Below are positions 25,403 through 27,673 of a stretch of DNA of 37,272 bases, in pieces. This stretch comes from Candidatus Woesearchaeota archaeon (GTDB lineage Archaea > Nanobdellota > Nanobdellia > SCGC-AAA011-G17 > GW2011-AR18): the NCBI GenBank assembly GCA_964467335.1, contig CAYXPX010000001.1, positions 12,320-49,591 on the forward strand. The letters run 5' to 3'. The first letter of the stretch is position 1, and every line of letters begins with the position of its first letter. The notes under the pieces are model-generated. The model had not been told where the DNA came from, ran no database searches, and worked only from the letters and a program-made list of their open reading frames with translations. The translations under genes and the position numbers were made by a program.

Positions 25403-27673
25403 TTAGCTTAGCACCTCTCTTATTATTCTTGCAACATTAATCTTCCCGCCCTCTGTTTTTGAAACATCAAGGCCATCCTCGCCGTATAAAAATTGGATGA
25501 TATTCTGCTCAGCATCTCTCACAGTAGAATCATATTCCACTTTTATGTCCTGCAGTGCGCTTGACAGTCTCCTGTAAAGATATCCTGATTTTGGAGTTCT
25601 TAAGGCAGTGTCCATAAGTGAGTCTCTTCCTGTCATTGCGTGCATAAAATATTCCTCAGGTGAAAGCCCCTCTTTATATCCCCTTTTTATAAAACCCTTT
25701 GCCCTTGGGCTCAGGTCATTTTTTTGAAATATGCACAGTGTCCTGCCCCTGTATCCTATGTCAATCCTTTTTCCCCTTAATGCCTGTAAGCCGACGCATG
25801 CAGCCATCATGGAAAGATTCATGTTGCTCCCCTTTGCTCCTGAATTTGCCATGAGAATTGTGGAATTTTCCTCAAGGTCTGCTTCAGCAATAATTTCTCC
25901 AGTACGCTGCCTTGCCTTGTTCAGGACTTCCATGATTTTAATTTCAAGCGTATCCATCGTGCTTAGCCCCGGAAGGGCATCAAGTTGTTTTGATTTGTAT
26001 TGTTCAATAAGCTGGCTTACTCTTTTTTCAGCATTGTATATTGTCTCTTTGCATTTGTCAGATACTTCTTTCGGAAGGTCTGTATCGCTTATGGAAGTTG
26101 TAAATCCATGCCTGAGCAGCACTCCTATTCCAAGTCTGAAAATCTTTCCAAGTATATCAAGACCGACATCAGCACCGTACTTTGCATACACAGCTCTTAT
26201 CAAGTCTCCCTTGTCTTTTCCAATTGTTGCCTTGTCAATCACTCCTTCAGTTAAAAATCCATTCTTTACAACAACAGCCTCCTTTGATTTTGAATGGCCT
26301 ATGAAACTAAAGTCATCAGGCAGCAAAGCGCTGAAAATCTCCCTTCCGTCAGCTGTTTTTTTGAACTTTTCAAATCTTTCAGGCCTGAAAACTCCAACGC
26401 TGTGAAGAAGCTGTATCGCATCAGCCCTGTCCATCTTAATGTCCTTTGTTAGAATGTAATTGCCAGTAACAGCATCGTCGCTGCATCCAACAACATGGGT
26501 TTCATCAGTTATTTTTTTCTTTTTTCCGTCAGGCCTTATAACATAGTTGCTGCCTGGATATTTTTTTGGGCCGTTTTCCACAAATTTTTTTAGTCTCTTA
26601 AGATTCCATTCAGTAACCCTTTCAGGTGTAGTAAGCTCCATTGCAACAACAAGCGGGATGCCGACCTCATTAAGTTCTATTTTTGAGTCAGGACTTATGA
26701 CAGTTCTTGCAGCGTAATTAACTCTTTTGCCGGCAAGGTTGTGCCTGAATCTTCCCTCCTTGCTTTTTATCCTTTCAGTAAGTGTTCTTAATGCCTGCCC
26801 GCTCCTGTGCCTTGCAGGAGGAATTTGGCTTACCTCATTGTCAAAATAAGTTGTAATATGATACTGCAGTAAATCCCAAAGATCTTCTATAATAATCTCA
26901 GGTGCTCCTGCATTTATGTTTTCAAAAAGTCTCTGGTTTATTCTTACAATATCTCCAAGCTTGTGTGTCAGATCATCTTCACTCCTTTCGCCTGTTTCCA
27001 GCGTGATGCTCGGTCTTATTGTAACAGGAGGCACTGGAAGTATTGTTAAAACACCCCACTCAGGTCTTGCATATTCAGGATTCAGTCCGAGGAACGCAAT
27101 ATCACTATCGCTTACTCTCTCAAGTCTTGTCCTTATATCAATAAGGTTCAATCTCTTGTCGCCTTCAAGAAATGTAGTCGGCCTCTCAAGTTTTATATTT
27201 TCCTGCTTTGCACTGCAGTGCTGGCACTTTTTTATATTCTTAAGTGAATTTCTAATGCTTTTGGCCTGCTTTTGTGTAGATACTTCAACCTCAGGATTTT
27301 CTCCTGCATTTTCCTCTTCTACAGTTAGTCTTGCCTTGCTGTCAGCTAGAAGCTTTCCGCATTCTCTGCATGTGCATCTTAAAACTCCGAGTATTATATC
27401 AGCGTATTTAATATGTATCACAGGTCTTGCCAGATCAAAATATCCAAAATGCCCCATGCAGTCCCTCAAATTTCCTCCGCATGTTTTGCATCTTAAGCCG
27501 GGATCAATGACTCCAAGTCTCACATCCATCAGCCCGCCGTCAACAGGATAGCCCTCTCTGTCATAAAGTTCAGGTGTAACTATTTTCGCAACAGCCATCT
27601 TCTTTATCATTGTAGGTGAAAACATCCCGAAAATTATGCTGGTTATTTTTTTGTATACGTATGTTTCTGCCAT
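25403..27673 (-). CDS. rpoA1: DNA-directed RNA polymerase subunit A' (atypically short; active-site segment not found)
   Basis: Zn-ribbon/clamp motifs ([17 protein letters not shown]), [34 protein letters not shown], and funnel/cleft motifs ([30 protein letters not shown]). The start is placed at ATG 27673. The [10 protein letters not shown] region is absent (see findings). Confidence 0.85.
   Translation of the reverse strand: [756 protein letters not shown]

What the first reader, a model, noticed from the sequence alone, without database searches (positions are those of the whole stretch)
26480..26540. RpoA' ORF lacks the segment carrying the universally conserved [10 protein letters not shown] catalytic loop
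The rpoA' ORF is continuous and in frame but only ~756 aa long; I recall archaeal A' as about 870-890 aa. Reading it against the conserved A'/Rpb1 order, the sequence goes ...[48 protein letters not shown] and then directly [16 protein letters not shown]. That second stretch is the equivalent of GGPIIGxxQDxISGxYLLT. The ~105-120 aa that normally lie between these points are missing ([31 protein letters not shown]...[26 protein letters not shown]...). This segment is the double-psi beta-barrel holding the three Mg-binding Asp residues. No frame in the supplied six-frame track encodes that motif; the only DFDGDG strings are calcium-loop repeats in the 818-aa acidic protein. The junction lies in an A-rich run (GGA AAA AAG AAA AAA ATA). 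All other operon members look intact and tightly coupled, so this does not look like a generally decaying locus. There are three possibilities: (a) an assembly collapse or deletion, (b) a pseudogenised copy with a functional copy elsewhere, or (c) a new split architecture in which the active-site barrel is supplied in trans. Option (c) would be unprecedented for a cellular RNA polymerase.
Basis: partly seen in the sequence, partly recalled or inferred. Interest (0 to 1): 0.85.

Follow-up and report, generated by a model that had tools for sequence, protein, structure and literature searches.

The report
Hole in one contig's rpoA' gene
This Woesearchaeota contig's RNA polymerase A' gene really does lack the 100 codons that carry the catalytic magnesium loop, but every relative has them, so it is most likely a local assembly error or a dead minority allele at an intein-prone spot, not a new kind of polymerase.

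Summary
Observation confirmed. The rpoA' ORF (25403..27673, minus strand, 756 aa) lacks exactly 100 codons (300 nt), EQLLEEL...[10 protein letters not shown]...PKNGLN. These are the second half of the double-psi beta-barrel with the Mg loop. The junction lies at 26494-26497.

The reading as a new architecture is not supported.
- The sister population (98% aa, about 91% nt identity; four independent assemblies) has an intact 856-aa gene.
- All 120 best database hits and all 80 GTDB loci are also full length.
- Substitutions on the window's own branch show the same strong purifying selection as the sister branch (omega 0.051 vs 0.053). A long-standing pseudogene is therefore excluded.
- The missing piece is nowhere else in the window, and no close stand-alone copy turned up among the short proteins that search listed.

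New finding: relatives at 80-85% nt identity carry a 496-aa intein inserted inside the missing segment (PSV|intein|[11 protein letters not shown]). The hole therefore brackets a mobile-intein homing site in a clade where intein presence varies.

The junction has only 3 nt of microhomology. The deletion is in the deposited NCBI contig (55,022 nt).

Best reading: a local assembly or consensus error, or less likely a non-viable deletion allele, at a strain-variable site. Only the reads can settle it. Low interest.

The parts
25403..27673 (-). rpoA' (Rpo1N) ORF, 756 aa, continuous and in frame, lacking 100 internal codons
   Evidence: The same 756-aa product is on record from an NCBI contig of 55,022 nt.
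26494..26497 (-). Deletion junction: ...[11 protein letters not shown]...; CAT (His) at 26497..26495, GTT (Val) at 26494..26492; 3-nt microhomology ATG at 26496..26494
   Evidence: DNA alignment to L001 and L002; coordinates. BLAST segments overlap at 26494..26496.
26495..26731 (-). Retained first half of the double-psi beta-barrel region (Pfam Rpb1_2 profile positions 1-97 of 166)
   Evidence: Residues 317-395 in the 758-aa numbering.
26510..26527 (-). A-rich run GGAAAAAAGAAAAAAATA (GKKKKI); not the junction, and identical in intact relatives
   Evidence: It is part of a 35-nt stretch identical in L001, L092 and L095.
24283..25401 (-). rpoA'' (Rpo1C), 372 aa, intact; same length as in all relatives
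27676..28104 (-). Lineage-specific 142-aa ORFan between rpoB' and rpoA'. Also present in relatives with an intact A', so it is not a compensating partner.
28106..29908 (-). rpoB' (600 aa), intact
   Evidence: Same length in all relatives.
29910..32903 (-). rpoB'' (997 aa) carrying a 501-aa LAGLIDADG intein at 30051..31553
   Evidence: The intein is absent from the sister contigs L085 and L086 and from L084 (496 aa).
32896..33138 (-). rpoH (80 aa), start of the operon
   Evidence: Rpb5_C homologues sit at the same position in L083, L084, L092 and L095.

Best explanation
The hole is a defect of this one deposited contig, not a property of the organism's RNA polymerase.

The real rpoA' of this Woesearchaeota population is most likely canonical: about 856 aa, or about 1,352 aa if it carries the A' intein seen in relatives. 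Between DETH and VVGCSDD the assembly joined the two flanks and skipped either 300 nt or 1,788 nt (300 plus the intein).

The skipped stretch is the most conserved part of the gene, so it shares k-mers with co-occurring related strains. It also contains the homing site of a mobile intein whose presence varies among close relatives. Local assembly or consensus errors arise at strain-variable spots of this kind.

Shown: the deletion, its exact extent, its uniqueness to this contig, the lack of any relaxed selection, and the intein site inside it.

Inferred: that the junction is not carried by the viable majority genome.
For: (1) The deletion is private. The sister population at 98% aa / about 91% nt identity is intact in four independent assemblies (L001, L002, L085, L086). 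All 120 best hits are 826-880 aa. All 80 GTDB loci match along their whole length.

(2) There is no decay. The window branch has 55 synonymous and 10 non-synonymous changes (omega 0.051). The sister branch has 42 and 8 (omega 0.053). There are no stops or frameshifts, and a neutral phase could cover at most about 3.5% of the branch. The event is therefore extremely recent or not biological.

(3) The loss is lethal as it stands. It removes the three Mg-binding Asp residues and half of the barrel, and it does not fall on a domain boundary. That these residues are essential is established knowledge of multisubunit RNAPs.

(4) Relatives L092, L094 and L095 carry a 496-aa intein at PSV|C...KN|[11 protein letters not shown]. 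That is 55 codons after the 5' breakpoint and 45 codons before the 3' breakpoint. Intein presence in A' and in B'' varies within this clade.

(5) All other genes compared keep their length relative to the same relatives.

(6) The base rate is high. Thirteen local assembly errors were found in one 1.13-Mb curated metagenome genome, and such errors put incorrect gene sequences into public databases (PMC7111523).

(7) The missing piece is not elsewhere in the window. The search with the missing segment listed only short proteins and found none more than 80% identical.
Against: The closest relatives show no repeat at the two breakpoints, only the 3-nt microhomology ATG. A classical repeat collapse is therefore not explained, and a de Bruijn assembler normally needs reads that carry the junction.

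The deletion is exactly in frame (chance 1/3).

The window has no N and no other visible error.

I could not see reads, the assembler used, or the rest of the genome.
Confidence: 0.7

Rival explanations
1. It is a real deletion allele present in DNA of the sample. It would arise when a double-strand break at the intein homing site (cut by the A' intein's LAGLIDADG endonuclease, or any other break) was resected and rejoined by microhomology-mediated end joining instead of homologous repair. The allele is null. It could persist only briefly, or alongside intact copies in a polyploid cell or mixed population, and the assembler happened to follow it.
For: The hole brackets the homing site roughly symmetrically, 165 nt upstream and 135 nt downstream. 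The junction has a 3-nt microhomology and no repeat, as expected for end joining rather than assembler collapse. Inteins are clearly mobile in this clade. No accumulated damage fits a very young allele.
Against: A random 300-nt deletion within the gene would cover the site about 12% of the time, so the coincidence is weak. A null allele of an essential single-copy gene should not dominate the reads. No intein-bearing strain of the same species has been observed. A microhomology of 3 nt is close to chance.
Confidence: 0.17
2. The operon copy is a pseudogene or non-catalytic paralogue, and a second, intact rpoA' elsewhere in the genome does the work.
For: The rest of the genome could not be inspected. 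The ORF is still open.
Against: Omega on the window branch is 0.05, equal to that of the functional sister gene, with no stops or frameshifts. In every relative the operon copy is the functional one, and each of the three related NCBI assemblies retrieved shows one operon. The full-length search found no additional near-identical A'; the best NCBI-sourced hit, at 87%, belongs to another operon in another assembly.
Confidence: 0.06
3. It is a new split architecture: the catalytic half-barrel is encoded separately and joins the truncated A' in trans.
For: Only that the ORF is open, in frame and under purifying selection, and that an unexplained ORFan sits next to it.
Against: The deletion arose within a cluster at 98% aa identity whose other members are canonical. 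It cuts the barrel in half rather than excising a domain. The ORFan also occurs next to intact A' genes and has no similarity to the barrel. No stand-alone copy is in the window. The short proteins that match the segment are at most 80% identical. The one traced to its contig, P0159, lies in a long-read contig where A' and A'' are split into several ORFs, and its C-terminal residues read out of frame, so I take it to be a frameshift fragment. No intein halves lie at the junction that could mediate trans-splicing.
Confidence: 0.02

Closest known systems
Canonical archaeal RNA polymerase subunit A' / Rpo1N (e.g. Pyrococcus furiosus 8cro_A, Thermococcus kodakarensis 4qiw_A; Woesearchaeota orthologues of 840-880 aa)
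   Same: Same operon position (rpoH-B''-B'-A'-A''-L30e-nusA-like). Pfam domains Rpb1_1, _3, _4 and _5 are all present. 98% aa identity to an intact orthologue outside the gap.
   Different: Lacks 100 residues, including the second half of Rpb1_2 and the [10 protein letters not shown] loop.
Intein-containing rpoA' alleles (the archaeal Mja rPol A' intein is on record, PMC1635734; here L092, L094 and L095)
   Same: The anomaly sits at the place where close relatives carry a 496-aa LAGLIDADG intein, five residues before NADFDGD. The window's own rpoB'' has a related intein.
   Different: The window has no intein sequence in A'. Extein sequence is missing, which protein splicing never causes.
Local assembly errors in metagenome-assembled genomes (PMC7111523)
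   Same: A short internal discrepancy confined to one contig, in a region shared with related strains, that yields an incorrect protein in a public database.
   Different: No repeat or unsupported filler sequence is visible, and the join is clean and in frame. Read support could not be checked.
Naturally split archaeal RNAP genes (A'/A'' and B''/B')
   Same: Large subunits encoded in pieces that assemble non-covalently. Both splits are present in this window.
   Different: Those splits leave every residue encoded, in adjacent ORFs. Here 100 residues are encoded nowhere in the window.

Membership tests
Archaeal RNAP subunit A' (Rpo1N) | Pfam Rpb1 domains 1-4 plus the N-terminal part of domain 5, in order | tested here: inconclusive
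   Domains 1, 3, 4 and 5 match well. Domain 2 matches only profile positions 1-97 of 166.
Archaeal RNAP subunit A' (Rpo1N) | Catalytic NADFDGD(E/Q)MN loop with three Mg-binding Asp residues | tested here: not met
   Absent from the ORF and from all six frames of the window.
Archaeal RNAP subunit A' (Rpo1N) | Orthology and operon context (rpoH-B''-B'-A'-A'') | tested here: met
   98% aa identity to P0001. Synteny with L083-L086, L092 and L095.
Pseudogene | Relaxed selection, frameshifts or stop codons | tested here: not met
   Omega 0.051 on the window branch vs 0.053 on the sister branch. The ORF is open over 2,271 nt.
Intein-interrupted gene | Hint-domain splicing blocks (Cys1 ... (H/K)N | Cys+1) at the anomaly | tested here: not met
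   No intein sequence in the window's A'. It is present in relatives L092, L094 and L095 at PSV|C...KN|C.
Split-gene / trans-complemented RNAP subunit | A separate ORF that encodes the missing segment | tested here: not met
   None in the window. The adjacent ORFan is unrelated and also occurs with intact A'. No close stand-alone homologue among the short proteins listed. The rest of the genome was not testable.
Repeat-mediated assembly collapse | Direct repeat of k-mer length or more at both breakpoints in the uncollapsed sequence | tested here: not met
   Only the 3-nt ATG is shared at the breakpoints in L001 and L002. A 9-nt ATGTTGTTG repeat exists, but its first copy lies 33 nt inside the deleted segment.
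Local assembly error (any cause) | Consensus at the junction not supported by reads of the sample | not testable with these tools
   No reads are available. The window's own strain was not found in any other assembly.

The most novel reading that the evidence does not exclude
The junction is real and fixed in a living Woesearchaeota strain. Its operon-encoded A' lacks the Mg-binding half of the double-psi beta-barrel, and that half, perhaps still attached to the A' intein, is encoded elsewhere and supplied in trans, or a second complete A' exists. This would be the first cellular RNA polymerase with its catalytic loop detached from the largest subunit.
Probability: 0.02. Interest if true: 0.95.

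Novelty: not a real feature. Interest (0 to 1): 0.12.

Why it matters
If the deletion were real and fixed, it would overturn the rule that the catalytic Asp triad is always part of the largest RNAP subunit. The evidence says it is not fixed.

The practical points are more modest.
1. A public NCBI protein record (756-aa "A'") is almost certainly wrong. It should not be used for phylogeny, for completeness estimates or as an example of reduced DPANN machinery.
2. Intein-polymorphic, ultra-conserved sites are places where metagenome assemblies can fail or where null alleles can arise. A missing conserved motif in a MAG should first be checked against same-species relatives.
3. The clade shows lively intein gain and loss in both large RNAP subunits, and it has an ORFan inserted in the RNAP operon. 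Both are minor but genuine observations.

Tried and rejected
Pfam, PDB and orthologue alignments all show the same gap.
- Deletion introduced when the window was prepared: rejected. The 756-aa product is on record from an NCBI contig.
- Missing segment moved elsewhere in the window: rejected by tblastn, blastn and a motif scan.
- Recombinant or chimeric flanks from an intein-bearing lineage (co-conversion): rejected. The window is closest to the sister lineage in every 150-column alignment block scored on both sides of the junction.
- Repeat collapse: no repeat at the breakpoints.
- RNA-level explanation (structured element or splice-like motif at the junction): the fold is no better than shuffles (z = 0.32), and there are no Rfam or tRNA hits in the window.
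- ORFan as a trans-acting barrel substitute: rejected.
  - It also occurs next to intact A' genes.
  - It has no family hit.
  - Its AF2 model is unusable (pLDDT 52), so no fold search was run.
  - The exhaustive profile search found only itself plus patchy matches to giant proteins.
- Finding the same strain in other assemblies to see its A': failed.
  - Exact look-ups of A', A'', B' and L30e found nothing.
  - The flank pattern is absent from GTDB representative genomes.
  - The only metagenome hit is the sister population.
- Short stand-alone Rpb1_2 proteins on long contigs: the one traced to its contig, P0159, lies in a long-read contig where A' and A'' are split into several ORFs, with its tail reading out of frame, so I take it to be a frameshift fragment. 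The others were not traced.
- Acetate kinase looked N-terminally short in Pfam, but the N-terminal motif is present, so it is not a second deletion.
- A literature search for the accession numbers of the related assemblies found nothing.

Full report
**What is there**

The finding sits in a minus-strand RNA polymerase operon of a low-GC (about 37%) Woesearchaeota-type archaeon. The gene order is:
- rpoH (32896..33138)
- rpoB'' (29910..32903)
- rpoB' (28106..29908)
- a 142-aa ORFan (27676..28104)
- rpoA' (25403..27673)
- rpoA'' (24283..25401)
- L30e and a nusA-like gene
- an 822-aa acidic protein
- S12, a 255-aa ORF, and S7

The taxon comes from the names of the closest database proteins and GTDB records.

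Pfam matches Rpb1_1, _3, _4 and _5 normally. Rpb1_2 matches only profile positions 1-97 of 166. Against solved Pyrococcus/Thermococcus Rpo1N, the query jumps from chain residue 398 to residue 500 between query residues 394 and 396.

Against the closest relative, P0001 (856 aa, 98% identical), exactly 100 residues are absent (EQLLEEL...[17 protein letters not shown]...PKNGLN). At DNA level this is exactly 300 nt.

The junction is CAT|GTT at 26495|26494. The breakpoint is ambiguous only within a 3-nt ATG microhomology.

The missing segment is found nowhere else in the window. The 756-aa product is the gene call on a 55,022-nt NCBI contig, so the hole is in the public record.

**The hole is private to this contig**

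The sister population is about 91% identical in nucleotides and was recovered in four independent assemblies:
- L001 and L085, from two ANAN16 samples
- L002, from JGI metagenome 3300025317
- L086, from ERZ4903072

All four have an intact 856-aa gene. The next relatives, L083 and L084, are intact too. All 120 best protein hits are 826-880 aa. All 80 GTDB loci match over the whole query. One of the six search patterns in that scan was DFDGDEMN, but the other five lie outside the gap.

**The gene is not decaying**

I used L083 and L084 as outgroups and assigned substitutions to branches by parsimony. The window branch of A' carries 55 synonymous and 10 conservative non-synonymous changes. The sister branch carries 42 and 8. 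Omega is 0.051 and 0.053 respectively.

If the gene had been neutral since the deletion, about 197 non-synonymous changes would be expected over the whole branch. The data allow a neutral phase of at most about 3.5% of the branch. 51 sites were ambiguous and were left out.

Together with the open 2,271-nt frame, this rules out a long-standing pseudogene. The deletion is either very recent, or not biological, or the truncated protein is still selected.

**The truncated protein cannot be catalytic**

The lost piece is the second half of the double-psi beta-barrel together with the three Mg-binding aspartates. The first half ([15 protein letters not shown]...) is retained. The cut therefore runs through a domain, not between domains.

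**New context: an intein site inside the hole**

I followed the 90% cluster of the window's rpoB'. This led to relatives at 80-85% nt identity: L092 (GCA_053533395.1), L095 (GCA_053532135.1) and the Logan contig L094. The A' ORF is 1,358 aa in L092 and 1,353 aa in L095, with Intein_splicing embedded in Rpb1_2; L094 holds a contig-truncated 963-aa call with the same intein.

The 496-aa LAGLIDADG intein is inserted at ...FRLNPSV|CVAPDTL...[20 protein letters not shown]. That is 55 codons after the window's 5' breakpoint and 45 codons before its 3' breakpoint. Relative to these genomes the window lacks 1,785-1,788 nt.

Intein presence varies within the clade.

| Feature | Present | Absent |
|---|---|---|
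| A' intein | L092, L094, L095 | L001, L002, L083-L086 |
| B'' intein | window, L083, L092, L093, L095 | L084, L085, L086 |

. The hole therefore brackets the homing site of a mobile element in a lineage where that element comes and goes. A random 300-nt deletion in the gene would cover the site about 12% of the time. The coincidence is suggestive, not decisive.

**Weighing the explanations**

A fixed loss of the catalytic loop in the only rpoA' is lethal. The candidates are therefore:
- (i) a local assembly or consensus error
- (ii) a real but non-viable or minority deletion allele
- (iii) a dead operon copy plus an intact copy elsewhere
- (iv) trans-supply of the half-barrel

For (i):
- Local assembly errors are frequent in metagenome genomes. 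Thirteen were found in one 1.13-Mb genome, and they propagate wrong proteins into databases (PMC7111523).
- The skipped stretch is highly conserved. It is flanked upstream by a 35-nt stretch identical among L001, L092 and L095.
- In relatives it is structurally polymorphic because of the intein.

Against (i): there is no repeat at the breakpoints.

For (ii): the clean microhomology junction centred on an endonuclease target. Against (ii): a null allele should not dominate the reads.

Against (iii): the omega result, and the fact that in every relative the operon copy is the working one.

Against (iv):
- The event is confined to one member of a cluster at 98% aa identity.
- The cut goes through the barrel.
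- The neighbouring ORFan also sits beside intact A' genes in L085, L086 and L092.
- The search with the missing 100 residues listed only short proteins (96-175 aa), none more than 80% identical. The one traced to its contig, P0159, looks like a long-read frameshift fragment.

That search did not list full-length proteins, so it tests only for short stand-alone copies. The rest of the genome was not available.

My estimates are (i) 0.70, (ii) 0.17, (iii) 0.06 and (iv) 0.02, with the remainder unassigned.

**What could not be done**

No reads were available. The window's own strain is absent from the other assemblies searched. Read mapping across 26494-26497 is the decisive test.

**Verdict**

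The exciting interpretation is not supported. The record most likely misrepresents a canonical, possibly intein-bearing, rpoA'. Interest is low.

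Noticed in passing
window 30051..31553 (-), inside rpoB'' 29910..32903: A 501-aa LAGLIDADG intein (CLSKDTN...GFITHN|CPIETPEG) in RNAP subunit B''. It is present in L083, L092, L093 and L095 but absent from the 91%-identical sister population (L085, L086) and from L084. This indicates recent gain or loss within the clade.
   Followed up: partly
L092:5866-9942, L095:11804-15865, L094:2390-5278: Close relatives carry a 496-aa intein in rpoA', five residues before the catalytic NADFDGD loop (PSV|C...FLTKN|CNPY). Its penultimate residue is Lys rather than the usual His.
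   Followed up: partly
window 27676..28104 (-): A 142-aa ORFan wedged between the rpoB' stop and the rpoA' start. Orthologues exist only in the sister lineage (78% aa) and the L092 lineage (54% aa), and it is absent from L083, L084 and L095. dN/dS is 0.22-0.40, so it is a real coding gene. It has no Pfam or NCBIfam hit and no credible remote homologue among 1.8 billion representatives. The AF2 model is poor, pLDDT 52.
   Followed up: yes
window 21109..23577 (-): An 822-aa highly acidic protein between the nusA-like gene and S12, with GDFDGDG calcium-loop-like motifs (at 22359 and 22974) and no Pfam hit. A protein of 812-836 aa holds the same position in relatives.
   Followed up: no
window 19864..20631 (-): A 255-aa ORF with no family hit, inserted between the S12 and S7 ribosomal protein genes. 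It is conserved at that position in all relatives (255-260 aa).
   Followed up: no
window 8296..11636 (-): Phosphoketolase (XFP, 776 aa) immediately followed by a compact acetate kinase. This is a phosphoketolase / acetate kinase pair in a DPANN-type genome. The acetate kinase looked N-terminally short in Pfam, but its N-terminal motif (YLIVNVGSTSKRY) is present.
   Followed up: partly
L096:96-3847: A long-read metagenome contig (ERZ19489113 s12002.ptg012800l) in which rpoA' and rpoA'' are each called as three consecutive ORFs, apparently through frameshifts. This is one source of spurious stand-alone "active-site" mini-proteins in protein databases.
   Followed up: partly
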